Origin: Enoplolaimus lenunculus
Lineage: Eukaryota
DNA length: 64,000 bases
NCBI GenBank assembly: GCA_030248215.1
Contig: JASANG010003930.1
Coordinates: 62,001 to 126,000 of the forward strand
Direction: 5' to 3'
Each line of letters starts with the position of its first letter. Position 1 is the stretch's first letter. This document shows, piece by piece, positions 9,192 to 46,016 of this stretch. The notes under the pieces are model-generated. The model saw only the letters and a list, made by a program, of their open reading frames with translations, was not told the origin of the DNA and ran no database searches. Both the position numbers and the translations under genes were made by a program.

Positions 9192-9401
9192 TCAATAAAG
9201 TCTCGTAAGAAGAATTCGTTTCGTTCGATTCCAGACATCGTAACCAATCACAGTTTCAAAACGTCGGCGTCGAGCGGAAATAAAGGCACGCTGCTCTTCA
9301 TGTTCCCACCATGGACTCGCCATTACAAACAGGACAGCAGCCAGGCCGAGACACAATATTACAACGACGACTAGATTAAGATAGGCAGCTAATTTTGCCA
9401 T
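9192..9401 (-). CDS. Candidate small secreted or membrane peptide precursor (69 aa)
   Basis: True ATG start, hydrophobic N-terminus (LNLVVVVILCLGLAAVLFVMA), RRRR and KR sites, higher GC than the flanks, and a TTTCAG acceptor at 9567-9572. Confidence 0.5.
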   Translation of the reverse strand: MAKLAAYLNLVVVVILCLGLAAVLFVMASPWWEHEEQRAFISARRRRFETVIGYDVWNRTKRILLTRLY

Positions 9402-14445: not shown

Positions 14446-14777
14446 TTAATAGGGCCGATAATAGCTTCCGCTCACAATGGACCCGTTTGCGGTATCTCGA
14501 TGCGGTTGTAAATGAGCCGAACCACTGTACAGACCATACGGATCGCTTGGTGGATAGCTGATATAAGGCGTCGTATATGCGTCCATTCTTGCGTTATCAG
14601 TTGTGCTCACCACATCTTGCCAGTCGCGCAACGACGTGCGATCCCCGGGTAATGTTTTATTGGAATCATCTTTGAGTAGTTTGGAAGAACTTGCAGTTTT
14701 TGGCGAACCTGAATTTGCGCTTAGTTGGCCTGGAGTATTCGATATTGTGCAACCGTTGCTAGCGGTAATCGCTTGGC
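14446..14777 (-). CDS. Exon 35 (terminal coding exon)
   Basis: Strong TCTTTTCCAG phase-1 acceptor; GQAITASNG...SLRDWQDVV...GSYYRPY then TAA. Confidence 0.72.
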
Positions 14778-20700: not shown

Positions 20701-23700
20701 CAATTCGGTACTAATTATTTTGCATCAATTGTCACTCACCGCAAGGCCGACCCTTTGAGCCATAACTTGAAACGCTTGCGTTTTTCGGTCTCTGTAATCT
20801 TCGTTCCATTGTTCGTCGGGTAGTCGAATCCTCATGCGAAACCGTTGAGTTGCAATTTGTGGTGCGACTGTAAACAAATATAACAAAAAACAAAAGTACA
20901 ATAACACGACACATTGCTGTTATGATAAATTCATAATAGCGTTTGCAAGCTGACCACCAAATACAATTAATGCAATTAGCAATTTCCGAAAGTGTCACTG
21001 GTTGAACTATGCCCTACCATCGAAAACAGAAATAGTTCAGTGACACATGTTGGGGTATTGCATATGTTGTTTGTTTCAATTCACCAATTTTTTTCACTAA
21101 AGATTGAAATTTCGCTGTCTGAATTTAAGCTTTGACATTAAACTAAACTGAGGAGATTATAAACTGAAAAACTATATTTTTACCGTATTGACAACTAACT
21201 TTTATGGTCAAAAGCCGTACAGATACTCAGCTGTTATTATCAGTTATTAATAAGTTTTCAAACAAGCCAATTATGACAGCGGCAAAAGTCAAAATCATCG
21301 TAACAATAGCACAAATATCAAAACTCGCAAAATGTGCTTATTTTGAACTTTCCTACTTCCCGGCTTATAAGCTATAACATTTTTTCACAAACTAACGATA
21401 AAAACTATGCAACTGCCAGATTATCATGCGTACACGAGGTAACTTTTGAGAGGGCAGTGTCATGGAGAGTGAAGCCAATAAATCTTCAGTATCCAAGATA
21501 CTGAAGCCAAGAAATCTTCAGTGTCCACGACACTACCCCGTCAATAGTTAACTGTAGTATGTATAATATTGGTGAAGTTGCAATACACGCATGTCAGATT
21601 ACAGACAATGGTGTATAGAGTTATTCGTAGATTAACTTACACGTGCCAGGTTTTGCCACCTTGACATCTGGAGTTTTTGTTTCATAGTTTGCTGTCGAAA
21701 TTCCAATAGTGCGTGATGTAGTTTGTTTAGGTTCAGGTTTAGACTTATCGTACGAAGTGAATGTTGTTGTTCCGCTGGAAGTCGAAGACGAAATACTGGT
21801 GCTAGATGGAGTTTGCTCAGGATGCGGTTCCGGTTCCGCCTGGCTGCTGATTGGAAGATTCGATCGTAAAAATGTGTATCCTCCGTACTCTAACGGTTCT
21901 TTTGGTTCCGGTTTCAGAACAGGTTTAGCCTTCATTTCAACCGGCTGATAACCATGCAACTGTTCTTCTAACGTAGGAACGTATCGTTCATAGGCAACTG
22001 TAGACTCAGATTCAGGTACAGGCTCCGGAACTGCAGCAGTATTGACTGTTTCGGGTTCTACCTGGGGTACGACCGGTTCTCGTGATGGCTCACACTGAAG
22101 CAGACAAACCTTTGCCTCTGAGATTACCAAAGGTTTAGTCGAATCATGTCGTTGAATACCACCATCAATACCTGTAGTGCCACCCAGAACTGGATACACC
22201 ATGTAAACGCATTTGTTCAAGCTAAAATATTGTAAATTAAAGTTCGAGATCGTAGTGAGCGTGTAGCCACAAACGCAATTTTAGTACTCAATCTTAATGC
22301 AAAAATAGGTCATTTTAAGCCCTGATGTTGCGTCCGCAGCCTAGGTGGGGCGCGTTGAGATCCATCAGTGTTTATTTATAAACTGCAAATCAAATAAACC
22401 CGTCGTAGTGGGACTACATCTATTGAGCGAAGCTCGAACGCACGTAAGCAATTAAGGTAATATACAAATTAGTTATTAGCTAACTATTCATTTATCGGTT
22501 TTGAAGATTTTTAAGCAATTTCCTCAGATTCCTCGCACCCAAAAACCCTTCAGCCACCCTAATAATTATTGGAATAATTTTAAAAGTCCTAATTTTGTAT
22601 CGTCAATTAAGCAAATATACAAATTAGCTATTAGCAAACTATTCCATAATCGCTTTTAAAGGTTTGTAGACAATTTATTTAGATTCCTCGCTGCCGAAAA
22701 CCCATTATGGCTGAAATTATATTGCTTGTAACCCTAATAATTAGTGAAACATTGTAAAAACGCCTAATTTAGGCTTATCAATTATGCTTATATGCAAATT
22801 ATCTATTAGCTAACTACACAATTATCGGTTTTGAAGGTTTGCAAGCAATTTCCTCAGATTCCTCGCACCCAAAAACCCTTTAGCCACCCTAATAATTTTC
22901 GGAATAATTTAAAAAGTCCTAGATTTGTCTTGTCAATTAAGCTAATATGCAAATTAGCTATTAGCTAACTATTCAATTATCGGTTTTGGATGTTTGTAGA
23001 CAATTTATTCAAATTCTTCGCACCTAAAAACCCTTTGGTGCTGAAATTATATTGCTTTTAACCTTAATAATTAGTGAAATATTGTAAAAAGTCCTAATTT
23101 AGGCTTATAAACTATGCTAATATGCAAATTATGTATTAGCTAACTGGTAAGTATCGGTTTTGGCGGTTTGTAAACAGTCTACGCAAATTTCTCGCACCCA
23201 AAAACCCTTTAATGCTAAAATTAGATTGCTTCTAACTGTAATAATTAGTGAAATATTGTGGAAAGTAATAATTTAGGCTTAATTAATTATGCAAATTAGC
23301 CTGTAGCTAATAAACGGCTTAAAATTTTAAAACCCCAATGTGAGGTTAACACTCCAGGATAATTAGCTTTCAAACAAAAAAAAGTTTATCAAAATCGGTT
23401 CAGCCGTTCCTGAGATTCTTTTCGGACGGACGGACATCCACCTTTCGACCCCCAAGTACAAAACGTAAAACGCTTCGCGCGCTCAAAAACTGAAAATTGG
23501 TTATTGCTTTCTTCGTCAATTTTTCATTAATGTAAACATTATGGTAGTTGAATACTGTTTGAAATACAAAAAGGCAAAACCTTTTTTACTAAAGTTCATA
23601 AACCACAACCCATTTCTGAATGAATATTTTCTTCGATTGGTGCCCTGGTTTCCGAGTGAAAACCGTTTACCATCATTACTCTACGTATAGAAGATTGACC

Positions 23701-26700
23701 GCTTGGACTCGAGGGAACTCTCACGTCTTGACGAGATTTTCCATTACACAAACGCGTATTAATTGTTAAACGCAGTACAATGTGTATTTATTGCGTGTGC
23801 GCAGATTGCCCATAGTTGCTCAAAGTGTACTATTTGCGAGAAAAGGTAAGAAGTTAAATCTAACCTGCATTAAAAATATTGAGCAATTTTACCCTGAACT
23901 TTCGACACACCTTGTACAAATTTGAAGCCAATCATCTTTTGTAGACTCGTAGCTCTACAAAAACCGCTTAAAGTATATGCTTTCTCTTAGCTCTACGGAA
24001 ATCCCTTGAAGTATATCCTTTGACCTGGTTACTTACTCTATATCTTCAGAATCATCATTTGTTTGCAGCGGTCGGGTAAAAACAAAATGCAGTACACCAT
24101 CGTCACTATAGTGCCCCGTAATTCCATAAATGTTTTGTTGGTAATCAACTGCAGGTGCATCTTCGCCAATAGAATGTCTGAAATGTTCGCCAGCAATTAT
24201 TTAACGCGTCAGCCGTAGCTCCAAATTACTTTGCGTAAACTGTATTTTGCAAGCAATTTTGCAAAACGCATGCAGTCCCGCAGCAAACTCAACCTGCTAG
24301 AAGGGACCAAAATAATTTTAGGCGGATCATGCGGTTAAAACAATAAGGTAACAAGTGTGACTAAACCTTTTCCAGAGGGAAGATTTTACTAGGGGCTCTA
24401 CACATGGCCCGTCTATGGCTGAAGATTTTTTAATATTTGCCGGCGCCGTGCGTCGCTGTACGTGACCGTTCGTTAGCATGAATATCGCACTAGAATTACT
24501 TGCGTCTGTTATTGTACGGTGACGCACAGGGACGGACGTGGACGAACGACGCCGTACAAAATATCTAACAATCGCTTAGAGTATAAATTCGAAATAAGTT
24601 TACTAAAATGTCGCTTTCGCTAGCGTGGTGTGATTTCATACAAATATGTTTAACAGTGACTACGTCATCTTGCCAAATTTTGATAGTTGATAACTAATAA
24701 GAATTTGATTACATTATTTATTTACCTGTCGAATGCTTCGATTTCACCGGTTTCTGACATTCTAGCAATTACCCAATCAATTTGACTCTAAAACAAATTC
24801 ATTAAGATGAATCACAACAGAATGTACGTATTAAGCTTTGTAAGCAATTCGTTTCATATTCGGTCATTGATTTAAATTGATCGCCAATGTCGATGCAGGT
24901 ACGTCTCAAATTCAATTTTTTTCAATATTTCGATAGACCCGTTTATTACTAATAGCCGGAATGCCGGTCAGATTAAAGCTATTTTGAATTAAAAAGTTAC
25001 TGAAAAACTCTGAATAAGAATGATTTGCCCGACAAAACAAATATGGAATATTTAAATAGGTAGGAAACCGCAGATACCGTCACAGCTTGATAAGTTTATG
25101 GAAATAATTTTGCAGAAACGATGGTAACTTGGCGGCTAATCATCTCCGTCTCTCTCCCCGGACCCTTTGAAATGGCTGATTCTCTAGTTGACCTATGATC
25201 ACAATTAATATACGGACGACGCGCCCAGGTTAATTACAAGGACTGCCACTTGAAAGACAGTAGGACTGGGGAACTTTGATATTTAAAAGCATAGGCTAAA
25301 ACATAGACTAAGGCTTAGGATTAATGTGACGTTTAGGCTTGGTTAAGACTTAGGTTAAGGCTTAAAATTAGTAAGCAGTTCCTTATAGTTAACATGAGTC
25401 ATTATAATTATCATTATACAAACTGCACAAACATACCGTAGGGATTTGCTCGTTTACAAACCCAACGCCCGTCCAACTGTCCGCAGGCACACGAGCGTCC
25501 ACGGTAAATGTGACATCGGAATCGCGTCGAAACCACGAGACACGGTACTGCTGGTCTTCACCAAATTCGTAAACACCAGTACATTCAGTAGGAAGATCTC
25601 TGGTGGGTGGATCTGAAAACCAGCGCATATTGTCAAATTGTACACTTGTATGCCGTTTAAGATAACTCGGTATGTTTTACAATTGGTAAACCTAAGATTT
25701 AAACGACACCAAATTCAATATCGTGGGATCATTTGAGGATCCTGAGATTTCTGATGGAGGGTGCGCTTATAGAATTTCTGGAACTGAAGACGCCGCTAAG
25801 CTTTTGAGATATACAGAGAAATTTGTGGAAATGGGATGCCGAAGGTGCCAATCAGCGTTTGAAAAATAAAAAAAAATTTCGCAAAACAATGAAAATCGCT
25901 TCAAAACGTGATACAATTGAATTCTTGTTTGGAAAGAATTAGCTGGTGTAGGGCGTCTACTGACTCTTACGCGGACGGTGACTTTATGAATTATGTGCGA
26001 GGAATATGAATTGAAATGAAAGCTAATAAGATTAATTTTAATTTTTTCACTAAAACCTTTACGGGTGGAAAATTTTGCGAAATCCATGCAAGCAAAGTCA
26101 GAGAGAAGCTGAACAGTAATTAAATAACTTATAGCTGATTACTGTATTGACCCGAAAAAAAGGGGGATGCGTAATAAGAGGGGGTTGGGTAATAAGAGGG
26201 GGTCCCCATTTTGAGTCCGAATCAATTGGGGTCCGTATCCCTAATAAGAGTCCGTACGCGGATAGTCCCTAAACCCTAATTAGAGTTCAGAAATGTCAAA
26301 TGATCCTAATTGTAGCGCATAAAATTTTAAATCATTTAATCTGGTGGGCACTTTCTCTACGCGTACACAGGCGCAGAATAAGTAGGGCAATAAATGTATC
26401 AATATGGAATAATTAAAACTCAGATCGTTCTTAGAAGTAAAAAATTCGTTCGCGGTTTAGCCAGTCTAATCACAAACTGGTAGTCATTTTTGAGGGGTGC
26501 TCCATGTCATCCCAACTAAACTCAGGGGGACATGGAGCACCCCTCAAAAATGACTACAATACAGTGATCTTTAGCTACCTTTATAGTTATTAACAAATTC
26601 TAAGCACGCAAGTGAACCAACTACTCACCGTAAAAGTTCACATTGAACATGCCACGGTTTAATTTTCCATGATATTTGAGGACATCTAATTCGTAGAAAT

Positions 26701-29700
26701 CGCTGTTGTATTGCGTATTAGTTTGCTCTAATCCTGAAAATATAGAGTAACACAGAAGGATAAGAAAGCTCGCAGGCACTAAAGAATATTTTACAATGAG
26801 CTTATATCTTACCAAAAGAAATGTTGGTTACGTATTATAACTGTATGTTAAGGGTAGCGCTATACTTTTGATGACGTCCGGTGCCGACCATCATCGTTCG
26901 TCATTCGCACGGTACCGGCCGTCACCCTCACGTGCCGTCCGTCACCCGTTACGGCGCCGTCCGTCACCCGTTACGGCGCCGTCCGTCCACCCGTCACCGT
27001 CACGTACAATACTGTACCGTGATGCACGGCGCCGTACGGGTGACGGATGGTCCGTACGACAAGTATAGCGCAACCCTTACGCATCTTAAATGTGTAAGTT
27101 CATTCAGAATTATTTATTTTCGGTTATTAAACACAAGAGTATACAGAATTGCTTTGAAAATAATAATTTAGTGTTTATATTGTTTCCATATACGAAAATA
27201 GAAAAATATTGATTCAGCCTTATTGAATATGAGATTAAGCAAGTTCACTTCGATATGTCCATCCTTACCAGATGGCGGGTCATGATAATACAGCCCAGGT
27301 TGTTGACCTTTCGCCCAAATGACGTCCATGTTCTTGTCGACAATAACGTGATCAGCCTTGGAGTCATTCGCTGAAAAAATTTAATACGGTTCTTTGTAAG
27401 CAGGTAGCAAGTTCCTGATTGGTTAGCTTACATTCGTCAAAATCTTATAGATTCAAAAAACCAGAGATTTAAAAAAATTTGCTTTAAAAATTAAATATTC
27501 CATTTGAGTTCAAACTCACTTCGAAGTGGCCTTCTGAACAATATTGTGGTAATGCCATCTTGTTCGTAGCCCAGTGCTGTTGTAATACTATCGCTTCCGC
27601 CGTAGAAACTGTCTTCACGAGGCGTTGCGCGGCTAATCTGAAATTTAAATAAAAATTAAGTATTTGCACATAAACAGCAAAAAAGTCTTATTTATTATGT
27701 TTCGTATTTTAGTCAATTTATCTTATCTGTATTTAGCAAAGATCGCGCTATGCGCAGCCATTTATAGGTTTTCAAACAAATGAACTACAATACTTGGCAA
27801 TAGAAAATTTGGCACAGTTGTAGCTTGTGTTTGTCGTAGAAAGTATATTAAATGTATTGGCTGTCAAAAGTAATCGCTAAGTTTGGATATACGCTGTGTT
27901 ATTCACAGTAGGAAATAGTTTCGCTAACTGAAGGTACTCGAATACGGAAGCTTGAAATTTTAACAGATTGAACAAAATCAATGATCGGCAAAAAGGTTTG
28001 GTTACTTTCGGAAAGTTTTAACAATAAAAACATCGTATTCATTCGTTCCAAATCATAATTTTATTTCGTCGTAATTTTGTGCTTTATATAAACACACGCG
28101 GGGTCTGTAAAGAAGAATAGCTTAAAGCGCAACTTATCACCTCTCGTTTCCTAGGCCGAATTGCAACATGCTTTATAGGTTGCTAACAGTCACATTTACG
28201 TTCTGCCCATGATTATTATAGGAGCGTTCCCACTGGGGAACAGGGCGTCGCGGAGACTTGAACATTGGAAAGCTTAATCTTAAGCTTAGGATTAGGAATA
28301 GGATTATGTTTAGGCTGTGGCTTAGGATAAGAATTAGTGTTCGATTTTGGCTTGGTTTAGGCGAAGCAGGCAGGCCTCTATAGATACGACGAGCTTTATA
28401 TTCATTCAATTTACCGTATAGTAATCTGCAACACGGCTTACGTAGCCAACTGCACTTCCGACAACAATATCCATGCAATCCATCGGGTGCAAGTCTAATA
28501 ATAACAGAACCGAATTACCCGGTGTGTCTAGTGGCGCCGTTCTGTAATCCGACGTCGAGCAGGCATACAAAAACGAATAAAATATTAGCTTTTAAAAGAT
28601 AAAATAAACGACTAAACTATTCGCTCTTAAGATTAAATTTTTAAACAGTTTGTGATGGTTCGATAGGTTAATTCCCATACCTCACCGACCCAACCGCGTG
28701 CCCCATGTTAAAAATTGTTTTGTCGCTCAGCATGCGGATTTGGCTACGCTCTGCTATTCAAAACTATCAAAACAACTTTTGGGCGAAAAAACGTTTCGAA
28801 TATTCTGAAGCAACTCTTAACAGATCAGATACAAAATAGCACCAAACGTTGTCAAAAAGTCAGACCAAGTATCCAGAAGAAAAGGGGTTTCAGCCCCCAG
28901 AATAATTTTGGCCTGCTGGAAAAGTTTAGCTTCAACAGTAAGCTTTTTTAAACCGCAAGCCACTCCTAAAATTGTTTTGTACCCCAAGCAGGTAAACTGC
29001 CTTCAAGCCTGCAGAGCAAATCTCTTACGTGGTTGTGTTCTGCGAATAGACGATGTCTTTGGCTCCGCTTCGGGTTCAGAATATTGAACTTGTTTAAAGC
29101 CTGGTTCAGGCTCGGCATATGTAGCATCTGAAATTTTAATTTTTATAACACTTTAGGAAACGGAAAAATTCGACTTAGCCAGTGTAATAAAATTACGGTC
29201 AATATGAGACCCTGTGATCGGTAGACGTCCTGTAAACATCTGTTATTTTGAAAAAGAGCAATCAAACGATAATTTGTTTAGTCTGAAATTTCGACCATCT
29301 TACTTTTAGAAGCATCCTTCATTCTCGTGGAGCTGCATAAAGCAGGCTAACGAATACAGCTATTTTTGCATAGGCTCAGGCTTAGTGTTACACATACCCG
29401 TTATGCTGATGCTTTGCTTTAGGAATCACACTGTTGTGTTCCTAAACGTGCCATTGGCCAAAAATTATATTAATGTATTTATACGAAACTCGTCTTAGCA
29501 CTTGTAAAAACAGCCTACAATAGTTTAAATCTAGAACGGATTATCGGTTCACGATAGAGGCCTCAGCGAAACGTAACTTTTTAAAAATAGCGTTTCCTGT
29601 TACCTTTAGGATAATATTCAACTTGACGTTTTGCACGCAACAGCGGCTCTCCATCGTCTAAAGTAAATTAACAACGGTTACCAACTTCAATCATGTGTTA

Positions 29701-38700: not shown

Positions 38701-41700
38701 AGCGAAATTTGCGGACCTCGTACATCATGACTTTGAAGCAGGGCAGAATACTGATCTGCTCCAAGCTGATCTAGCCAGATTTCCGGTTCAGACCGGCGTT
38801 CCGGTTCAGGTTTAGGCTCTCCTTCAGCGATTGGATAACTTGGAGAACTCAAGCGAGGTAGTGCTGCACAAGTAGTTGAAACGTCTTAAAACAGTTTATG
38901 AATAACTTGAATTTTGATGGCTTTTGTCAATATATTAAGCACAACTCTGTATATTTGCAGCAAATTAAAGTTTGTCATTTTTCGCAAGAAATTTTATTCA
39001 ATATAAACCAAGTGAGAGGTTAGGGTATATATGTAGAGCCTGTTGTATTACTCCAGTCGTTATGTTTTGGGGATCTTTTTTGTGAACTGTAAGTTCCAAT
39101 GAGTGTACTAATTAACGTATAGAGAACTAGTTATTTCTGTTTATTTCTGAGTTATTTATAACAGTAAATAATAACTCACTCTGAGCTGATCTACTTCCGA
39201 GAGATTTGATCAATTAACTTAGAATGATTTCAATAAATTTACAATTCTGAGTTCTGAGAGACCTAATTCAGCGCTCAAACTTTTGAGTGGATTCAACTCT
39301 TTCTGAGTTGAAATCAACGTATTTCTCATTTACAGTGCGGGAGGGAAGTATAAACAAGTAAACATAACTCACCTGAAGGTCTCCATCCGACGGCAATCCA
39401 AGATGTGCTCGGAAATTGAAGGACAAATTCGATTTCGTTTTCTTGCTGAAATATTGTGTTAACTAATTGAAGAGTTACCTCAGATATTACACAAAGCAAG
39501 TCAGTCTATAATACATATTTAGAATTAATCACATTTTTCACGGTTCAAAGTTAAAATCTTTTTCAAACTTTTAGCTGAGAAGGCAGTAAGCCTTTAGCAA
39601 ACTCAGCATGCTAGGCAGACGCAGACAAAACTATTTTATGTTTCTTAAAACGCTATAATGCGAGCACTCTGCACATTCAACGCGACAGCATAATTTTCTA
39701 CTAAAATTGTAAAATGTTTACCGTAGACGGATGTACGGACTGTGGGATGTACGATACATAGATAGTTTGCTTAAAAATTATTAAACTCGTAAAATTATAT
39801 TTCTCAAAATTAAAGTTTCATTCAATTTGTCAATTTTACTTTCAAAAACATAATAGTATTTGCCGTAAAAAATTCAATTTCTCCCAAATTTTTCGTATCG
39901 GCGCAAAAAATCAGAAGCAAACAAGGCTTTTGTTTTCAAATAAAAACACAGATGCATAGAGTAAAGAATGCTTGTCTGCAATTTACCGGCAAGATACGCC
40001 ACATTATTTTGTTTTGTTCCGGTCCAACAATTCGCTTCGTATATAAACTTTCGTCAATATCATCTTTATGGGATACCTTTGAGCCTAAAAACGAAAACAC
40101 ACCTGTTAGAAATAGATATTGCCTAAGTGTAAAAGTACATGGTTTTTCGGTTATCCGCAGAGCCATCGTTTACCGAACAATGGTAATATTTTGAAAATTT
40201 TTGCAGATTGTATCTTCTTGACGACTGCCTCCGATCATTTCCTGAGCCCGTAGCCAGAGGAGTTCAACACTTGCAGAAAAATTTCGGCCAAACTACAAAA
40301 GTTGTATAGTCCTGCTTGTGAGTCTTGCAAAATCAACGAAGTTTTGGCCCCACTGACATGTTATGCTGGCTACGGCCCTGTCGCTTACACAACTAAGTTT
40401 TAGTTCTTGCAATTTTAATATTTCGAGGTCACAAATTATTTGTACCATCCCAGATCGTTGGCAGTGCACCAAATCAGTTATTTAAACGTTACCTTGCAAA
40501 CATTTGGCCACATTGCAAAAGCAATCATTCAAGCGGTTTTAATTTCTAGTAGTTTTAGTGGATTTAGCTCTTTCTAACAGTAGTTATTAGTCAAACTAGC
40601 TCGTGTTTGCCGATAGGTGGTCTGGGCTCTTGTATACAATTCCAGCACATTATAAGATTAAGGCTTATGATACAAGTTTAACTTACGTTTATCGCACAGT
40701 TTTCCAAAATACCCCATTTTGCAGTAACATACTCGTCGAGGATATACTTCACTGTATCGAATTTGGCATAATCCATATTGACCACAGTCCGAGTCTTGCC
40801 AACATTCATCTGAAATTTTGTAAACAAGTTAAGCCTAATTTAGCTTTTGATTGATCATAACTTATATTTCTACGACTCGCAGGGTGTATTTATTTCAGGC
40901 CGACACGAGAAGTGAAACAAGACTGAATGCTTGGACCGAATGATTACATACTAAAATTGCGAATGAAAGATGACGCTTATAACAAAGGTAAGTCAAAAAT
41001 ACAATTCTTAATTACGGGGGATCATTGCGCTAAAAGCAGGGGATACCCTGAGAACTAAAAATGTGCGTTGTAATTTTTTAGCACAAGTTTAACAAACATA
41101 CTTCTATTCTAAATAGTTAAATTAGAGCACCAAACAAAGGCAATTAGGCTGGATATTAATAGAAACAAAATTCTGAAGTACTTATCTTGGGAGCAAAATA
41201 CTTTAAAAAGACTTTCAGGCCGTCTCAAAAATCCAGACCGTCTCAAAAATCCAGACCGTCTCAAAAATCCAGACCGTCTCAAAAATCCAGGCCGTCTCAA
41301 AAATCCAGACCGTCTCAAAAATCCAAGCCGTCTCAAAAATCCAGATCGTCTCAAAAATCCAGACCGTCTCAAAAATCCAGACCGTCTCAAAAATCCAGAC
41401 CGTCTCAAAAATTCTGACCGTCTCAAAAATCCAGACCGTCTCAAAAATCCAGACCGTCTCAAAAATCCAGACCGTCTCAAAAATCCAGACCGTCTCAAAA
41501 ATCCAGACCGTCTCAAAAATCCAGACCGTCTCAAAAATCCAAGCCGTCTCAAAAATCCAGACCGTCTCAAAAATCCAAGCCGTCTCAAAAATCCAGACCG
41601 TCTCAAAAATCCAAGCCCTCTCAAAAATCCAGACCGTCTCAAAAATCCAAGCCGTCTCAAAAATGCAGACTGTCTCAAAAATCCAGACCGTCTCAAAAAT

Positions 41701-44700
41701 CCAAGCCGTCTCAAAAATCCAGACTGTCTCAAAAATCCAGACCGTCTCAAAAATCCAGACCGTCTCAAAAATCCAAGCCGTCTCAAAAATACATTGGTTG
41801 CTTAAATTTTTTGTGCCGTAGTATACATCAACGTCCTTATGTGAAAAAAGTTGATAGTTATATTGTGCTTACCTTCATTTTGGCAGTAGGACCCTGAGTA
41901 AAATGTATCACATAGACATCCGGAGCCAGTCCACGTCCCGTGGCCAGAGCATAACGTTTCAGCAACAGGAACTAAAGTAAACGATCGACAAGCATAGCGT
42001 CACGAGTGCATAAATATGTACGCAAAATTTCAATACTTATATTTCGTATACCCAGGCCTGCAGCCAGCACACTTTGCTAGTTGGACTAAACATTTTTCAG
42101 AAGGGGCATTCAATGGGTTTGGATGACGTACAAGCAAGGCTGAAAATTTTTTGGGAAGGTGCGAAATTCTTCCAACAGGGCTGAGCCTCCCTTGGCCCCC
42201 ATATGACTACGTGCATGCATATACCGCACCTATCAGTGATTAGAGATCGTTGGCGAACCCAGGGTTTTGGTTTGGGAAGGGTAATACACAGGGCCGGTGT
42301 TAGGATAGTTGGGTCCCCCTGAAGGGAGGCTTCAATTAAATGTTTCACAACTCTTTCATTTCGTGGCCCACGAAAAGCTTTTAGTTTGCCAAGCTGTACT
42401 TCAGATATTGCCGGGTTCGAGGGGGGCGCTTCTTCCGCCACTGGTAACACCAAGTACTTTAGTGTATATGGTTTGTTTTAAGCCTATAGGTCTCAGCTAG
42501 TATTTTATTTACAAAATACACTAGTCAAATTCATAAGAGGGGTCATTGACTCATTTGTTCCCTCTGACTGCGTACTTGTATGAAACGCTATTTTTCGTCT
42601 AGAATCTTCGAAACATCTAAGCGATGCTTACCTTGAACTATTGACACGTCAGCGCAACTGAGGAAATTATACGTTGGGCCCCATTCAAGACCTTGCCGGG
42701 TCAAACGTATCGCACATTTTGGACACTCAAATCCTTCGGGCAAATTGACTAGGTAATGTGTCAGTCTGAAACAGTATTTTCACCCATTAGATAAAATTTC
42801 ATCATACCAGCCATGTATAGGCAGCGGCAATGATAACAGTTGCAAACAAGCACTCGAGTTGATGCTGGTTTTTTGAGCTCCAAGTTTGGTAAAAGGTAGA
42901 AGTTTACTTTCCCAAACTACTACTGCTTCATCATTCATTTTACTAAACCTATCTATCAGGTTGCAACCGAAGCTGAAAAACTGGAGACGATGCCGCAGGT
43001 AAATAACTTTAGCCGGAGCCGGAATTGGAGTTGGAAATAAAGCAAAAATAGGTTATAAAAATAAGGTTCAATTTACAACTTTTAACAATAATTTGCAAAG
43101 AATGGTCAGAAAACAGTTCATAAGCTTCCTTTTTAAGAACAAAGTTAAAATCAGCTCGATGTGAAAAGCACAACTGGGATAAACAAATGAAAAATTTCAT
43201 TACCGAAGTTACCGGAACTTCTGAAAAAACTCTGCACGAAGCCGGGACCGGAGGTCAATTTTTTGCCGGAGTCGGAGTCATACCTCTGGTTGTACCCTGA
43301 TAGTTGCATGTCACAACAAATAGGGTTTTATAGATGAGTTCCGCATTTGTGAAATTTAGTATGCAGGGCCAAAGTCAAGCCTCGCAATAGTCCTCCTGGT
43401 GACTGTCACCTTTCTGGTTCACCGAGGGACCACGGTGTTGGCTGATGTCCTGGTTATAAATGAAATAATTCGATGCGTAAGTTGAAGGAAAATTTCCTAC
43501 AGCTACGTATACGATGCTTTTAAGAGTATCGGAAAGCATATAAATCACTTTAATTTGAACTAAATTTTACGAGTGAATGAAAACAGCAGTAGAATGAATA
43601 TGAGTATGTGTAAAATCCCTTACGTGGGAGCCTTACAGGAATTAATGAGTGTTACCGTGGGCTTCGTCATATATGTAGTTTTATGAAAGGCTTACGCATA
43701 GAACGCTTAGACTTACGTTGGATGCGTTTTACCCGCATAGTCATCTTCTTCAAGTGTTAGCTCCATAAATGCGTTATCGAATTCGTCAAGTAGTTCTAAT
43801 CGAAAACCACCCTAAATCTTTACTAATACAATGTATAAAAGACATAAATTACTTGGCAAATTTTCGTTATGTTTCGGCTAAAAATTATAAATGCCTTCGC
43901 CAAATTTTCAGTTACTTTGCATATTATTTGCTTTTGAAATTTAAATAAATCACTCCGTAAAGAAGCATATACAGAGTCGAATCTAGAGGGCACCTTGGTG
44001 CAGTAGCTTTCACCAGAAATTGTTTCAGGAAAAATGGTAAGGGCATACTTCACTAAAATTAAATTACTATACTACTCTTCTAACCGCAACAACTGTGATT
44101 AGCTTTGCAACTCACAGAATGACTATTAGATTTTAGCGTAAAAATGCGTTAAATTAATATCAGAGACGCAAAAACGAGTTTTTCTAGGGTTCTCAGACGG
44201 CAGGACACCGGTTAACACAAAAACAAAACGTGCCATCAAATCCTCGATATCCCCCATTTGACGGGCTTCACCTCTAAAGGGGCCCCCGTGTTTAACCGGT
44301 TCAAACAAAAACCGCCGAAGTTTTAAAATACGTAACAGTCAAAGGACGAATTATTTAAGCAGAAATATTTAAACACAACTTTATATATAAGCGATACTAC
44401 AAATATAGAGATTTTATCGGCCACGCCACCACTTTTCGATGGACAAAGTTGTAGACATACCTGATGCGGATATGATAAAGTCCACGATACATTAAATTTT
44501 GAACCAGCTTGGATTGTAGTTCGAACTCCTGAAAAAAGATCGAAATAATCAGTTTAAAAGTTTAAAATACTACGCACGTCAAACATGGATATATACTGCA
44601 ATGGAACCGGACGCGGATATGTAGCCACAGCGACGTGCCTAAATGGAAGAACCTTCAGTGAGATTTATTAGTTAAATCGAGATTAAGAGACAAATTTTAT

Positions 44701-46016
44701 CACATTTTCACAGCAACAACATTTTTATATATTTAAAAGCCAACGTTCTCAAACGCAAGTATATATCATATTTTATATAATATTAAAATACATAGGGTTA
44801 GTTGTTATTCGCCAGAAATCGTCCGCCTCAGAACAAGACCACGAGCAGGAGTCAAAGCCAAGAATTTGCCTTAAGATTTAGCACTAAAATTGCGTTTTAT
44901 TTTTCACCCGAGAATTTTTTCACAATTACATATCGAGTGACCCTTTATCATCACAAAATTTGGCAGTGCGGATAAATCAAAAAGAAATGTCATTTGAAAT
45001 TCAACTAATTTAAACTTTAACTCACGAAGGTCAAGGTTGTGAATAATTTCCAATCATTCTGTATGTCAAACTCAAAATAATAAAATTGTCCATTAATTTT
45101 TTTCGTAATAAAAGAATTTGTTTTGAATCCATGTTCAAAAGTCAAAAATTTAATTTGTTTCGTTTGTCCAAAAACATTTTGACATGTGGGTTGAAGTGTG
45201 GTCGAATAAAATGATTTAAGTGTTGTTAAATTACACCGACCTTTAAAACGATTAATGTTACCGAAATCGTTAAAAACGAAACAATATTCGAGGCAAAGGT
45301 TTTTTAAAATGATTATATCTGTCGCCTAGCGCCACTGGGCTGGCTCGTAAACAGCTCATGTTGCTAGGGGGCGGAAAATTTTTCAGAAAAAACATACATG
45401 GGTTTTCGATGACTTACAAACAAGGTTGAAAATTTTCTAGAAGGAGGGCAGACAAAATTCTTTCTGGAGGAGGACTGAGCCTCACGGCCCCCACTGGCTA
45501 CGGGCCCGTTGATGAGTTAAAATATGTTTTTGTTTCCCTTATGCAAAGAACCTATAGTGGTCTGGTAGCCCTTGGTAGATCAAATATTTTTCGGTGGAAT
45601 GCGGTTGAATATTTTATGTATATTAACGGGATGCCGAAAGTTTCGCTGGGACCCTCCAAGGGGGTTTCGGTTAAATTCCTAGAAGGTATGGTGGATGGTA
45701 GTCGCAACATTGTGCTTGATGACATTATTTATTCCTCCATTCTCATGTTGTATATGTCGTTGATCCAGTGCCATGTATGCCAGCATGAAAACATACCTTC
45801 ACCATCGCGAGGAGCTGGTACGCCGCACGCGCCCGAATATCGATGATTATCCAAAAAATCCAAATCAGGATATCGCGCTTGTGGGAATGTAAGACGAACG
45901 TGCCCAACACAACGCCCGGGTACATTTAAAATTGCATAGATTACAAATATTATTCGCAGTTGGTGCAAAGTTGAACACTTCCACCGGAAGCGCTCGTTGT
46001 AACTTTGAGGTATCAT
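14446..46016 (-). CDS. 35-exon gene for a ~1847-aa type I membrane protein: signal peptide, His-brace LPMO-like domain, 2x EGF, 4x DOMON (two nested), SEA, TM, Tyr-rich tail
   Basis: Manual splice model with all introns GT-AG, matching phases at every junction and no in-frame stop. Exons: 46016-45797, 44528-44461, 43811-43717, 42765-42632, 41971-41873, 40809-40687, 40084-39987, 39445-39373, 38884-38648, 37628-37363, 36906-36760, 36429-35848, 34876-34815, 33743-33608, 32899-32752, 32057-31867, 31581-31523, 31035-30934, 30462-30275, 29127-29029, 28494-28415, 27637-27520, 27370-27269, 26733-26629, 25612-25437, 24787-24726, 24177-24037, 22221-21641, 20867-20740, 19823-19762, 18950-18796, 18000-17867, 17226-17167, 16369-16189, 14777-14446. 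From memory it resembles the Drosophila nahoda-type EGF/DOMON proteins; this was not verified by a search. Confidence 0.88.
15131..15746. repeat. 21-bp minisatellite, about 29 copies, in the last intron
   Basis: Unit TTTTTACTTTAATGTTACAAC, near-identical copies. Confidence 0.95.
16189..16369 (-). CDS. Exon 34 (cytoplasmic, Tyr-rich)
   Basis: DGYSMYHTGSYKHVPAG...YQPYSNSFA; both splice sites are weaker than elsewhere. Confidence 0.7.
17167..17226 (-). CDS. Exon 33 (cytoplasmic)
   Basis: TTTCAG acceptor; YDPSKSASSVPFSPYSYLLQ; phase 0-0. Confidence 0.75.
17867..18000 (-). CDS. Exon 32 (transmembrane helix)
   Basis: VREDTATELRNYIIIGVACFLILLAVIFAVCLITRTRRAKSKEYF: hydrophobic helix followed by basic stop-transfer residues. 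Confidence 0.88.
18796..18950 (-). CDS. Exon 31 (SEA, GSV motif)
   Basis: QGSVISIIEMIVRGEPVRPLALEQSVLEYLASSGNRIGAMTVDPQSIFVQE. Confidence 0.88.
19762..19823 (-). CDS. Exon 30 (SEA)
   Basis: VTEVFDQRFQRLEKIQVINFR. Confidence 0.85.
20740..20867 (-). CDS. Exon 29 (start of SEA domain)
   Basis: APQIATQRFRMRIRLPDEQWNEDYRDRKTQAFQVMAQRVGLA. Confidence 0.88.
21641..22221 (-). CDS. Exon 28 (end of DOMON-4 plus P/E/S/T-rich stalk)
   Basis: LNKCVYMVYPVLGG...IQRHDSTKPLVISEAKVCLLQC followed by EPE/ST-rich sequence. Confidence 0.9.
22421..23490 (+). mobile_element. Non-autonomous DINE/Helentron-like element with internal tandem repeats
   Basis: Imperfect inverted ends TTGAGCGAAGC...GCTTCGCGCGCTCAA; AAAATCGGTTCAGCCGTTCCTGAGA followed by GGACGGACGGACA; 155/175-bp internal repeats. 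Confidence 0.65.
24037..24177 (-). CDS. Exon 27 (DOMON-4)
   Basis: HSIGEDAPAVDYQQNIYGITGHYSDDGVLHFVFTRPLQTNDDSEDI. Confidence 0.9.
24726..24787 (-). CDS. Exon 26 (DOMON-4)
   Basis: SQIDWVIARMSETGEIEAFDR. Confidence 0.9.
25437..25612 (-). CDS. Exon 25 (DOMON-4 N-half)
   Basis: DPPTRDLPTECTGVYEFGEDQQYRVSWFRRDSDVTFTVDARVPADSWTGVGFVNEQIPT. Confidence 0.9.
26480..26557. repeat. Perfect 29-bp inverted repeat with a 20-nt loop
   Basis: GTAGTCATTTTTGAGGGGTGCTCCATGTC and its exact reverse complement. Confidence 0.95.
26629..26733 (-). CDS. Exon 24 (end of DOMON-1)
   Basis: GLEQTNTQYNSDFYELDVLKYHGKLNRGMFNVNFY, YHG-x-x-x-RG motif. Confidence 0.9.
26851..27077. mobile_element. GC-rich MITE (PIF/Harbinger-like ends)
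   Basis: TIRs AGGGTAGCGCTATACTT / AAGTATAGCGCAACCCT with TA/TWA flanks; internal CCGTCAC/GGCGCCGT repeats; a related degenerate copy lies near 24390-24560. Confidence 0.75.
27269..27370 (-). CDS. Exon 23 (DOMON-1 C-half)
   Basis: TNDSKADHVIVDKNMDVIWAKGQQPGLYYHDPPS. Confidence 0.9.
27520..27637 (-). CDS. Exon 22 (DOMON-1 C-half)
   Basis: ISRATPREDSFYGGSDSITTALGYEQDGITTILFRRPLR. Confidence 0.9.
28415..28494 (-). CDS. Exon 21 (DOMON-1 resumes)
   Basis: HLHPMDCMDIVVGSAVGYVSRVADYYT. Confidence 0.9.
29029..29127 (-). CDS. Exon 20 (EPE-rich linker)
   Basis: DATYAEPEPGFKQVQYSEPEAEPKTSSIRRTQP. Confidence 0.85.
30275..30462 (-). CDS. Exon 19 (end of DOMON-3)
   Basis: RLITPDRREDLAMIECVYFLYPIGGG...AIGYHDYYIPIASEEKICICT. 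Confidence 0.9.
30934..31035 (-). CDS. Exon 18 (DOMON-3)
   Basis: YTYGKHQPAVDKTQDIKVVSGSVEGNHQTISFKR. Confidence 0.9.
31523..31581 (-). CDS. Exon 17 (DOMON-3)
   Basis: TNSDVIVGWVYDDRPYITDR. Confidence 0.9.
31867..32057 (-). CDS. Exon 16 (DOMON-3 N-half)
   Basis: CTTEFKHPPGCSVEANDCDYHASWQLLPESEEVLFTISASGLGRWTGIALSEDKNM. Confidence 0.9.
32752..32899 (-). CDS. Exon 15 (end of DOMON-2)
   Basis: FDNACTHFLFPVTGGRFTNGRIQKHLDAPMVSSERVCIRSCGQKTPTEL. Confidence 0.9.
32922..33047. repeat. Palindromic mini-element
   Basis: GTATATGTC..GTAATTCAGCCCAATTCCGAATTGG / CCAATTCGGAATTGGGCTGAATTAC..GACATATAC. Confidence 0.85.
33608..33743 (-). CDS. Exon 14 (DOMON-2)
   Basis: YSTGYYKPFKDPRQNVTLLDSSHTKGVIRARFRRSRDTGDRRDTQ. 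Confidence 0.9.
34708..34780 (-). pseudogene. Degenerate tRNA-like or SINE remnant
   Basis: Minus strand TATCTCAGCGGTTA (A-box-like) and GGGCTCGAACCC (B-box-like), with no intact cloverleaf. Confidence 0.35.
34815..34876 (-). CDS. Exon 13 (DOMON-2)
   Basis: HDADIIMITSDKDDGLKLNDM. Confidence 0.85.
35848..36429 (-). CDS. Exon 12 (S/T-rich mucin-like stretch plus DOMON-2 N-half)
   Basis: Ends CFGEWRYPPDC...CEYRLSW...EIEFTLEARSPSGWWTGVGFSDSGTM. Confidence 0.9.
36760..36906 (-). CDS. Exon 11 (linker)
   Basis: LSTTVDLISGEISEQFTPTNVQVATTTHEIDAQEAAVLSKFETAKIYNS; phase 0-0. Confidence 0.8.
37363..37628 (-). CDS. Exon 10 (linker)
   Basis: Open frame GDLALPEPISNEPGTP...ELQQEG between a TTCAG acceptor and a GTAAGT donor. 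Confidence 0.8.
38648..38884 (-). CDS. Exon 9 (PEPE-rich linker)
   Basis: DVSTTCAALPRLSSPSYPIAEGEPKPEPERRSEPE...KRTELE; phase 1-1. Confidence 0.8.
39373..39445 (-). CDS. Exon 8 (DOMON-1 N-half)
   Basis: QENEIEFVLQFPSTSWIAVGWRPS, DOMON W-x-A-x-G-W strand. Confidence 0.9.
39987..40084 (-). CDS. Exon 7 (start of DOMON-1)
   Basis: RSKVSHKDDIDESLYTKRIVGPEQNKIMWRILP. Confidence 0.85.
40243..40380. mobile_element. Short GC-ended MITE family (CAGGGCCGTAGCCAG-type termini)
   Basis: GCCCGTAGCCAG...CTGGCTACGGCCCTG; related copies near 20230, 31172-31330, 42053-42215, 45330-45508 and 54550-54700. Confidence 0.6.
40687..40809 (-). CDS. Exon 6 (EGF-like 2)
   Basis: DECWQDSDCGQYGLCQIRYSEVYPRRVCYCKMGYFGKLCDK, six Cys in EGF spacing. 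Confidence 0.9.
41220..41789. repeat. 18-bp minisatellite, about 31 copies, in intron 5
   Basis: Unit CCGTCTCAAAAATCCAGA with AG/GA variants. Confidence 0.95.
41873..41971 (-). CDS. Exon 5 (EGF-like 1)
   Basis: VPVAETLCSGHGTWTGSGCLCDTFYSGSYCQNE. Confidence 0.9.
42632..42765 (-). CDS. Exon 4 (C-terminal strands of LPMO-like domain)
   Basis: LTHYLVNLPEGFECPKCAIRLTRQGLEWGPTYNFLSCADVSIVQ. Confidence 0.9.
42957..43299. mobile_element. MITE with CAGG(G)TGCAACC termini and CCGGAG repeats
   Basis: CAGGTTGCAACCG...CTGGTTGTACCCTG; related right ends near 7570-7645 and 52430-52524. Confidence 0.6.
43717..43811 (-). CDS. Exon 3 (LPMO-like domain)
   Basis: GGFRLELLDEFDNAFMELTLEEDDYAGKTHPT; GTAAGT donor. 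Confidence 0.9.
44461..44528 (-). CDS. Exon 2 (LPMO-like domain, second His)
   Basis: TTTCAG acceptor; GVRTTIQAGSKFNVSWTLSYPHQ; GTATGT donor. Confidence 0.9.
45797..46016 (-). CDS. Exon 1: start codon, signal peptide and N-terminal His
   Basis: MIPQ...RIIFVIYAILNVPGRCVG|HVRLTFPQARYPDLDFLDNHRYSGACGVPAPRDGE; donor G|GTATGT. Confidence 0.85.

What the first reader, a model, noticed from the sequence alone, without database searches (positions are those of the whole stretch)
21641..46016. Possible self-contained redox system: His-brace domain fused to several Met/His heme-type DOMON domains
Seen: four DOMON domains. DOMON-1 (HPMDCMD...KYHG), DOMON-2 (GTMHDAD...IQKH) and DOMON-3 (KNMTNSD...IGYH) each keep a Met four residues before the conserved Asp and a His near the last strand. 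Known: these positions are the axial heme-b ligands of cytochrome-type DOMONs such as the cellobiose dehydrogenase cytochrome domain, which donates electrons to fungal LPMOs. Inference: this protein may join a copper monooxygenase-like head to a multi-heme electron relay on a membrane-tethered stalk, an animal analogue of the CDH-LPMO pair.
Basis: partly seen in the sequence, partly recalled or inferred. Interest (0 to 1): 0.85.

Follow-up and report, generated by a model that had tools for sequence, protein, structure and literature searches.

The report
Nematode copper-head, multi-heme surface protein
This worm gene, the counterpart of the unstudied fly gene nahoda, encodes a predicted cell-surface protein whose tip resembles the copper enzymes that oxidise chitin and cellulose and whose body has three domains that likely bind heme and likely pass outside electrons to that copper; none of this has been tested in the lab.

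Summary
Observation confirmed. The minus-strand gene (46016-14446, 35-exon model, about 1845 aa, no RNA support) is a nematode member of the nahoda family: signal peptide, His-brace head, two EGFs, four DOMONs, SEA, one membrane helix. DOMON-1, -2 and -3 keep the Met/His pair; DOMON-4 has Thr for Met. Both brace histidines are kept in 65 of 66 homologues, and DOMON-1 Met and His in 61 of 62. Homologue models match AA15 LPMO (Z 12.3) and CDH-type cytochrome domains.

Corrections: there is no dehydrogenase or membrane electron carrier, so the system is not self-contained. The head has Tyr where AA15 has Ala89 and the second-sphere Glu, so LPMO catalysis is uncertain.

Added here: DOMON-2 and -3 sit inside the Met loop of DOMON-1, as in other nematodes, an annelid and bivalves. 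That loop carries a furin-type site in 36 of 43 homologues (1.9 expected).

Best reading (0.5): externally fed hemes reduce a copper oxidase site acting on extracellular matrix. One paper noted a DOMON/EGF LPMO-like clade; my searches found no functional study. The scan reported this family before in at least four other genomes.

The parts
14446..46016 (-). Whole gene, nahoda family, 35 coding exons, about 1845 aa (1822 aa with the alternative exon-9 donor at 38717)
   Evidence: All introns GT-AG and in phase, single stop at the end; BLAST matches to homologues over head, EGFs and all DOMONs; no RNA evidence
45903..46016 (-). Predicted signal peptide, residues 1-38, ending C-V-G before His39
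   Evidence: Hydrophobic stretch from residue 22; small residues at -1 and -3 across 66 homologues; no signal-peptide predictor was run
42636..45902 (-). LPMO-fold His-brace head, residues 39-171, exons 1-4: His39 (45902-45900), Tyr93, His95 (44466-44464), Glu155, Trp156, Tyr160, axial Phe162 (42665-42663)
   Evidence: Conservation; HMM alignment to TdAA15A; homologue models match 5msz at Z 11.6 and 12.3
40688..41963 (-). Two EGF-like domains, residues about 176-246
   Evidence: Pfam EGF hits on single exons, below cut-off; cysteines nearly invariant
39374..40052 (-). DOMON-1 N-terminal half (first strands to W-x-A-V-G-W-R-P), residues about 258-303, followed by conserved Cys309
   Evidence: Profile match; Cys within 12 residues after the GWRP motif in 62 of 62 homologues where the motif matched
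36055..38884 (-). Low-complexity S/T/P/E-rich linker inside the DOMON-1 loop (exons 9-12)
   Evidence: Translation; no Pfam match for two of its exons; least certain part of the model
32774..36054 (-). DOMON-2 (nested), residues about 646-822, Met714 and His805
   Evidence: Pfam DOMON hits on exons; alignment
30276..32034 (-). DOMON-3 (nested), residues about 838-1009, Met893 and His993
   Evidence: Pfam DOMON hits on exons; alignment
29604..29657 (-). 54-nt phase 1-1 exon carrying a furin-type site R-A-K-R (residues 1017-1020) right after DOMON-3
   Evidence: One of 11 in-frame cassette candidates by splice score; chosen because nematode P0085 and annelid P0136 have such a site at the same place; inferred
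25611..28494 (-). DOMON-1 C-terminal half, residues about 1062-1196, Met1065, Cys1067, His1182
   Evidence: Profile match; Met and His 61 of 62; homologue model matches CDH cytochrome and 6jt6
22092..25580 (-). DOMON-4, residues about 1207-1365; Thr1254 replaces the Met, His1347 kept
   Evidence: codon matches contigs of X1 and X2
20860..22091 (-). P/E/S/T-rich stalk
   Evidence: Translation
18797..20847 (-). SEA domain with a G-S-V-I motif at about residue 1581
   Evidence: Pfam SEA E 5.6e-4 on one exon, below cut-off; motif
17903..17965 (-). Single transmembrane helix
   Evidence: Hydropathy 3.27 over 19 residues
14446..17902 (-). Tyr/Ser/Pro-rich cytoplasmic tail to the stop codon
   Evidence: Translation; no Pfam match

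Best explanation
The gene encodes a predicted single-pass cell-surface protein of the nahoda family whose N-terminal His-brace head likely binds copper and whose DOMON-1, -2 and -3 likely bind heme b and likely pass electrons from an outside donor to that copper, which would then use O2 or H2O2 to oxidise an extracellular-matrix substrate. Shown in the sequence: domain order, His39/His95/Phe162, the three Met/His pairs, nesting of DOMON-2 and -3 in the Met loop of DOMON-1, and the lack of any dehydrogenase domain. Predicted on homologues: the LPMO fold, the cytochrome-type DOMON fold, and a defined head-EGF-EGF-DOMON-1 unit. Inferred: signal cleavage frees His39; furin-type cleavage after DOMON-3 leaves two chains held by the split DOMON-1 sandwich and a Cys309-Cys1067 disulfide; DOMON-1 is the obligatory heme next to the head, while the extra DOMONs are optional entry points; the donor is ascorbate, a cytochrome b561 or a flavo-oxidoreductase; the substrate is chitin or a cuticle or matrix glycoconjugate.
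For: His39 and His95 each in 65 of 66 dereplicated heads, Phe162 in 63 of 66. HMM alignment puts His95 on TdAA15A His91 and Phe162 on Tyr184 (roles in PMC5823890, passages). Head model of a sponge homologue (pLDDT 91.2): the top 22 matches among 48,161 chains are all LPMO or LPMO-like, best AA15 Z 12.3, rmsd 2.9 over 131 residues. Core model of P0036 (pLDDT 91.9, pTM 0.86): DOMON-1 matches EBDH gamma 2ivf_C (Z 10.3), PDH cytochrome b 6jt6 (10.1) and CDH cytochrome 1pl3/1d7c (9.8/9.6), and DBH 4zel (11.2). Met/His kept in 61 of 62 DOMON-1 and Met in 48 of 49 other DOMONs; heme-less DBH has Leu at that Met column, in line with PMC10691727 (passages). Head and DOMON-1 C-half occur together in 127 of 133 long homologues, the other 6 ending earlier, from hemichordates and tunicates to molluscs, annelids, nematodes and arthropods. 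Furin-type site in the DOMON-1 insertion in 36 of 43 versus 1.9 expected, and in 2 of 66 conserved cores.
Against: The usual second-sphere Glu/Gln position (TdAA15A Glu182 by alignment) is Tyr in 62 of 66 and the Ala89 position is Tyr in 61 of 66; a Glu/Gln headgroup is present in over 96% of AA9/10/11 LPMOs (PMC10472438, passages), though it can come from another backbone position and Glu155, Asp53 and Asp56 are conserved here. The head is short (about 133 aa against 195-201 for TdAA15A). LPMO-fold AA16 proteins can lack polysaccharide cleavage (PMC10088020, passages). No electron source lies in the chain. Both folds were predicted on homologues, not on this protein, and no coordinates were available to measure Met-His or heme-Cu distances. 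DOMON-4 here and DOMON-2 of Romanomermis have each lost one ligand, and two rhabditid orthologues have lost Tyr93 and part of the LDFLD motif.
Confidence: 0.5

Rival explanations
1. The cofactors are bound and coupled, but the head is not lytic: it works as an H2O2-producing or small-molecule oxidase, or as a copper-binding and copper-reducing site for metal handling, as described for AA16 or (recalled) X325/Bim1, with the hemes serving as in CYBDOM ferric reductases.
For: Tyr at both second-sphere positions; small head; AA16 is the second-best wide match (Z 10.9) and LaX325 matches at Z 9.5-10.5; Pfam BIM1-like hits at 21.5-26.1 bits in 4 of 14 homologues, cut-off 27; AA16s produce H2O2 without cleaving polysaccharides (PMC10088020, passages); no chitin-binding module in any of the 14 homologues scanned.
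Against: Closest structure and only significant sequence match is a true LPMO, AA15; a Tyr near the solvent-facing axial site is compatible with activity in C1-oxidising AA9s (PMC5987398, passage); surface Trp156 is kept in 60 of 66 and aligns near TdAA15A Tyr166.
Confidence: 0.3
2. The protein is mainly a matrix organiser or receptor; head and DOMONs bind ligands or metal independently and there is no heme-to-copper electron transfer.
For: Long mucin-like linkers, a SEA domain with a G-S-V-I motif, furin-type processing and a Tyr-rich tail resemble surface scaffolds; DOMON number varies from one to five; DBH joins a DOMON to a copper enzyme without heme (PMC10691727, passages).
Against: The specific Met/His pairs and both brace histidines are kept across phyla while linkers vary freely; the shortest members are just head, two EGFs and DOMON-1 with a 22-24 residue loop.
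Confidence: 0.15
3. The nested order or the fusion is an assembly or gene-model artefact, or several genes.
For: No RNA confirms the junctions; contigs laid on 21000-36500 leave small unbridged gaps among the listed pieces; linker exons are weakly constrained.
Against: One in-phase GT-AG model; the same nested order in P0085, P0136, P0236 and P0238 and the same start of it in P0137, P0038 and P0235; the protein groups with nematode long-form orthologues at 98/87 support.
Confidence: 0.03

Closest known systems
Drosophila nahoda and orthologues (NCBI name 'DOMON-like domain-containing protein nahoda'); early-branching DOMON/EGF LPMO-like clade of Voshol et al. 2019 (PMC6950343)
   Same: Head, two EGFs, split DOMON-1, further DOMON, SEA-like domain and membrane helix; 38-43% identity over head to DOMON-1 N-half.
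   Different: Insects have two DOMONs and a P/E-rich insertion; this nematode form has four, two nested in DOMON-1. The paper (Results section read) notes the clade and possible metal or sugar binding, not heme ligands, electron transfer or function.
AA15 LPMO TdAA15A (PDB 5msz)
   Same: Fold (Z 11.6-12.3, 22-24% identity), His1, second His, axial aromatic, CxxC...CAD pattern.
   Different: Shorter; Tyr for Ala89 and for Glu182; axial Phe; fused to EGFs, DOMONs and a membrane anchor; activity unknown.
Cellobiose dehydrogenase cytochrome domain (1d7b, 1d7c, 4qi3) and PDH cytochrome b (6jt6) with fungal LPMOs
   Same: DOMON fold (Z 9.3-10.1) with Met and His at the positions of the heme ligands.
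   Different: No flavin or PQQ dehydrogenase domain; cytochrome-like domain and copper site are in one chain, membrane-bound, up to several copies, and DOMON-1 is split by a large insertion.
CYBDOM proteins (SDR2/FRRS1, Drosophila CG8399)
   Same: Extracellular Met/His DOMON thought to take part in electron transfer (PMC10691727, passages).
   Different: They have a six-helix cytochrome b561 as electron source and no His-brace domain; this protein has the reverse.
Dopamine beta-hydroxylase (4zel)
   Same: DOMON fused to a copper oxygenase; best DOMON match (Z 11.2; E 3e-10).
   Different: Its DOMON lacks the Met/His pair (Leu at the Met column) and its copper domains are unrelated two-copper folds.
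AA16, X325/Bim1 and the bacterial SCE4755 family (NF043005)
   Same: Small LPMO-fold His-brace domains; structural Z 9.5-10.9; SCE4755 profile E down to 3.5e-13.
   Different: All profile scores stay below the curated cut-offs; none is known to carry EGF and DOMON domains.

Membership tests
nahoda family | Head + 2 EGF + split DOMON-1 + membrane anchor, homologous to proteins named nahoda | tested here: met
LPMO superfamily (fold and His brace) | His at residue 1 of the mature protein after a signal peptide | tested here: met
   His39 after C-V-G; His in 65 of 66, small residues at -1/-3; cleavage site inferred by rule, no predictor run
LPMO superfamily (fold and His brace) | Second brace His and axial Tyr/Phe | tested here: met
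   His95 65 of 66, Phe162 63 of 66, aligned to TdAA15A His91 and Tyr184
LPMO superfamily (fold and His brace) | LPMO beta-sandwich fold | tested here: met
   On homologue models P0141 and P0036: Z 12.3 and 11.6 to 5msz
Catalytic LPMO | Second-sphere Glu/Gln headgroup near the copper | tested here: inconclusive
   Usual position (two before the axial residue) is Tyr160, 62 of 66; Glu155 (64 of 66), Asp53 (66 of 66) or Asp56 (60 of 66) might substitute; no coordinates
Catalytic LPMO | Copper binding and oxidative cleavage of a polysaccharide | not testable with these tools
   Needs biochemistry
AA15 | Ala89 and Glu182 equivalents at the active site; domain of about 200 aa | tested here: not met
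   Tyr93 and Tyr160; head about 133 aa; 22-24% identity. Pfam LPMO_10 passed its cut-off in 1 of 14 homologues
X325/Bim1 | Pfam BIM1-like cut-off; Asp as extra copper ligand (recalled) | tested here: inconclusive
   21.5-26.1 bits against 27 in 4 of 14; Z 9.5-10.5; position of conserved Asp53/Asp56 not measurable
SCE4755 family (NF043005) | Curated score of 75 bits | tested here: not met
   23.1-49.8 bits in 8 of 8 homologues
Cytochrome-type (heme b) DOMON | Met in the loop before the conserved Asp strand and His before the last strand | tested here: met
   DOMON-1, -2, -3; DOMON-4 has His only
Cytochrome-type (heme b) DOMON | CDH-cytochrome fold | tested here: met
   DOMON-1 of P0036: Z 9.6-10.3 to 1d7c, 1pl3, 6jt6, 2ivf_C over about 150 residues; DOMON-2 to -4 were not folded
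Cytochrome-type (heme b) DOMON | Met and His converge on one pocket | tested here: inconclusive
   Aligned ranges span both residues (model 230-414 on 1pl3 8-175) but no residue-level mapping or coordinates were returned; the HMM search did not reach CDH sequences
Cytochrome-type (heme b) DOMON | Heme binding | not testable with these tools
   Needs spectroscopy
CDH-type self-sufficient donor | Flavin or PQQ dehydrogenase, or multi-helix cytochrome b561, in the same chain | tested here: not met
   No such region in the model; 0 of 126 homologues with more than two hydrophobic segments; none in Pfam scans of 14 homologues

The most novel reading that the evidence does not exclude
The nahoda family is an unrecognised class of animal cell-surface copper oxygenase that carries its own cytochrome: a tyrosine-flanked His-brace site fed by a furin-matured, split heme-b DOMON, with extra hemes plugged into the heme-ligand loop as a multi-heme antenna in nematodes, annelids and molluscs. 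It would oxidatively cut or cross-link cuticle or other matrix and be the LPMO-type enzyme of nematodes.
Probability: 0.3. Interest if true: 0.88.

Novelty: new variant of a known kind. Interest (0 to 1): 0.68.

Why it matters
How animal LPMO-type copper sites are reduced in vivo is open; the papers read use added small-molecule donors. A natural one-chain fusion of a His-brace site with CDH-like heme domains makes heme-to-copper transfer testable in a single construct of about 400 residues. The two tyrosines at second-sphere positions point to copper chemistry unlike that of described LPMO families. The family is present in nematodes, arthropods and molluscs and no vertebrate name appeared among the listed named hits (120 of 142 rows, 120 of 188), so it may matter for cuticle biology and for selective control of pests and parasites.

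Tried and rejected
No own genome was held. A word-based homologue search with one 44-aa exon found nothing; the HMMER search with the same exon found 166. The complex prediction of head against DOMON-1 with heme and Zn gave no answer (score 0.01, mark 0.34, alignments not used). No RNA holder was listed for 24000-33900, so splice junctions are unconfirmed; only 21000-36500 was compared with DNA contigs. A profile of ten non-core DOMONs matched only DBH and NxrC by sequence, not CDH. Literature: 'nahoda' 12 papers (11 listed; passages of 3 read, all passing mentions); 'DOMON'+'histidine brace' 7; 'LPMO'+'DOMON domain'+'fused'+'animal' 0; 'SCE4755' 0; the recalled identifiers C09F9.2 (1 unrelated listing) and CG12781 (2 unrelated listings); wider searches showed no study of this family in their listings. 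Rejected: sequencing error at the DOMON-4 Met position; the nested order as an artefact; AA15 membership; 'self-contained'. My first 34-exon model missed the furin-site exon (corrected); residue numbers above 1009 are 18 lower than in this report.
Full report
Gene model. The finding lies in a spliced gene on the minus strand. From the sequence I built 34 exons from 46016 to a stop at 14446, all GT-AG and in phase, giving 1827 aa. A splice-score scan of the introns gave 11 further in-frame candidates; one, 29657-29604, was added on homology grounds, giving 35 exons and 1845 aa. The exon-9 donor has two options. No RNA was available, so the model rests on splice signals and homology. The order is: signal peptide, head (39-171), two EGFs, DOMON-1 N-half, linker, DOMON-2, DOMON-3, linker, DOMON-1 C-half, DOMON-4, stalk, SEA, one membrane helix, tail. 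Pfam hits on single exons support DOMON, EGF and SEA, each below cut-off because exons are short.

Observation. DOMON-4 keeps His1347 but has Thr1254; contigs of two runs of one sample agree with the window at that codon. By composition the three pairs would arise at about 2e-11, but the domains are related, so conservation is the better test. Among 66 homologues dereplicated at 80% on the head (from 126 complete heads in 133 long proteins, window included), DOMON-1 has Met in 61 of 62 and His in 61 of 62. The other DOMONs have Met in 48 of 49 and His in 44 of 49; three misses are truncations, one is a one-column shift and one is a real loss in Romanomermis.

Identity. One head exon found 166 relatives. 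A head profile found 142 long proteins, 120 listed, several named nahoda; named rows are arthropods, nematodes, a nematomorph, molluscs, an annelid, a hemichordate and tunicates. Short hits add sponges and a green alga. In a 40-row tree of head to DOMON-1 N-half, the window protein joins the long nematode forms at 98/87 as their earliest branch. It is a nematode nahoda orthologue.

Nested architecture. Of 133 long proteins, 82 have head, split DOMON-1 and one further DOMON; 32 have DOMON-1 only; 5 (window, Angiostrongylus, Owenia, Ylistrum, Pecten) carry two or three DOMONs between the halves of DOMON-1, and 3 incomplete ones start the same way. The insertion runs from 22 to 743 residues. It sits between the W-x-A-x-G-W strand and the Met-bearing M-D-C-x-D motif, so it is in the loop that carries the presumed heme Met. 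It is bracketed by two conserved cysteines (62 of 62 and 61 of 62), which I infer form a disulfide clamp. An R-x-K/R-R site lies in the insertion in 36 of 43 homologues with insertions over 60 residues, against 1.9 expected from shuffles, in 2 of 19 short insertions, and in 2 of 66 conserved cores. The 34-exon window model counted as a miss in that test; the added exon supplies R-A-K-R right after DOMON-3, where P0085 and P0136 have theirs. Cleavage would leave the head chain attached to the membrane chain through the split DOMON-1. This is inference.

Head. His39 and His95 are each in 65 of 66, Phe162 in 63, Tyr93 in 61, Tyr160 in 62, Glu155 in 64, Asp53 in 66. The only significant sequence match of the head in the PDB is TdAA15A (E 1.3e-5). 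The alignment sets His95 on His91, Tyr93 on Ala89, Tyr160 on Glu182 and Phe162 on Tyr184; the roles of His1, His91, Ala89 and Tyr184 are in PMC5823890 (passages). A sponge head model matches LPMO or LPMO-like chains in its top 22 of 48,161, led by AA15 (Z 12.3), AA16 (10.9), AA10 (10.7) and AA11 (10.6) (Foldseek agrees on the fold). So it is built like an LPMO but is not an AA15. The Glu/Gln headgroup found in over 96% of AA9/10/11 enzymes can come from two backbone positions (PMC10472438, passages); here the usual one is Tyr, and whether Glu155 or an Asp fills in cannot be seen without coordinates. Profiles for BIM1-like and SCE4755 score below cut-off.

DOMONs. A compact homologue, P0036 (458 aa), folds with pLDDT 91.9 and pTM 0.86, which suggests a defined arrangement of head, EGFs and DOMON-1 but does not show which faces meet. 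Its DOMON-1 matches DBH (Z 11.2), EBDH gamma (10.3), PDH cytochrome b (10.1) and CDH cytochrome (9.3-9.8). PMC10691727 (passages) states that CDH binds heme b by Met and His, that insect CG8399 DOMONs keep both, and that sugar-binding DOMONs and DBH do not. In my alignment DBH has Leu at the Met column. Heme binding is therefore likely for DOMON-1 to -3 and doubtful for DOMON-4. Convergence of Met and His was not measured.

Mechanism. CDH is a flavin enzyme that reduces LPMOs (PMC5987398, passages). This protein has the cytochrome-like part and the copper-like part but no dehydrogenase, and no homologue with head and DOMON-1 had more than two hydrophobic segments (0 of 126). It would therefore need an outside donor. 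My best reading (0.5) is donor to DOMON heme to copper, then oxidation of a matrix substrate. A non-lytic oxidase or metal-handling role (0.3) fits the odd second sphere and the AA16 precedent (PMC10088020, passages). An uncoupled scaffold (0.15) and an artefact (0.03) fit worse.

What is known. Voshol et al. 2019 (PMC6950343; passages and the first part of Results) found an early-branching LPMO-like clade with DOMON/EGF domains and left its function open. Passages of three papers naming nahoda are passing mentions: a marker of accessory-gland secondary cells, a candidate under selection, and an abundant earthworm EST. A Trichinella DOMON protein rises at moulting (PMC6757440, passages); its orthology is untested. 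Passages of PMC4059243 and PMC10541181 were irrelevant. Supplements were not read; the table of Voshol et al. may list family members. Ten searches showed no study of copper, heme, nesting or cleavage in this family; subscription papers are not covered. Earlier notes of this scan describe the same family in other genomes; they are AI notes, not independent support, and the algal fusion they mention was not reproduced here.

Verdict. The feature is real. It is a new variant of known kinds: known parts in an uncharacterised, ancient combination, with an unusual copper second sphere and a nested, probably cleaved heme domain. Interest 0.68.

Noticed in passing
window 35848, 31867 and 25437 (minus strand): DOMON-2, -3 and -4 share a phase-0 intron right after the Met (or Thr) codon and a phase-2 intron about 20 codons later, which suggests duplication of one module; DOMON-4's ACG is one base from ATG.
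   Followed up: partly
window 18797-18950: SEA domain has a G-S-V-I motif like self-cleaving mucin SEA domains (recalled); a similar motif occurs in 4 of 11 homologues checked.
   Followed up: partly
homologues P0249, P0239, P0252, P0229, P0266, P0247, P0257: Nematodes have a second, short paralogue with DOMON-1 only, forming its own clade (100/100).
   Followed up: partly
homologues P0085, P0081: Rhabditid long-form orthologues keep both brace histidines but have lost Tyr93 and part of the LDFLD motif.
   Followed up: no
P0314, P0141, P0299: Fragments of the family are named from a green alga (Tetraselmis striata) and two sponges (Geodia, Sycon).
   Followed up: partly
window 41216-41790 and 15132-15746: Intronic tandem arrays: 18-bp unit x 32 and 21-bp unit x 29; they create long spurious repeat ORFs.
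   Followed up: no
window 22449-23296, 26170-26290: High-copy dispersed repeats in introns, with very high contig depth.
   Followed up: no
window 9195-9401 (minus): 69-codon ORF starting with a hydrophobic signal- or membrane-like stretch, possibly the first exon of a neighbouring gene; no Pfam match.
   Followed up: partly
whole window: 56 TTAGGC hexamers and mostly TTTCAG/TTTTAG acceptors, in keeping with a nematode.
   Followed up: partly
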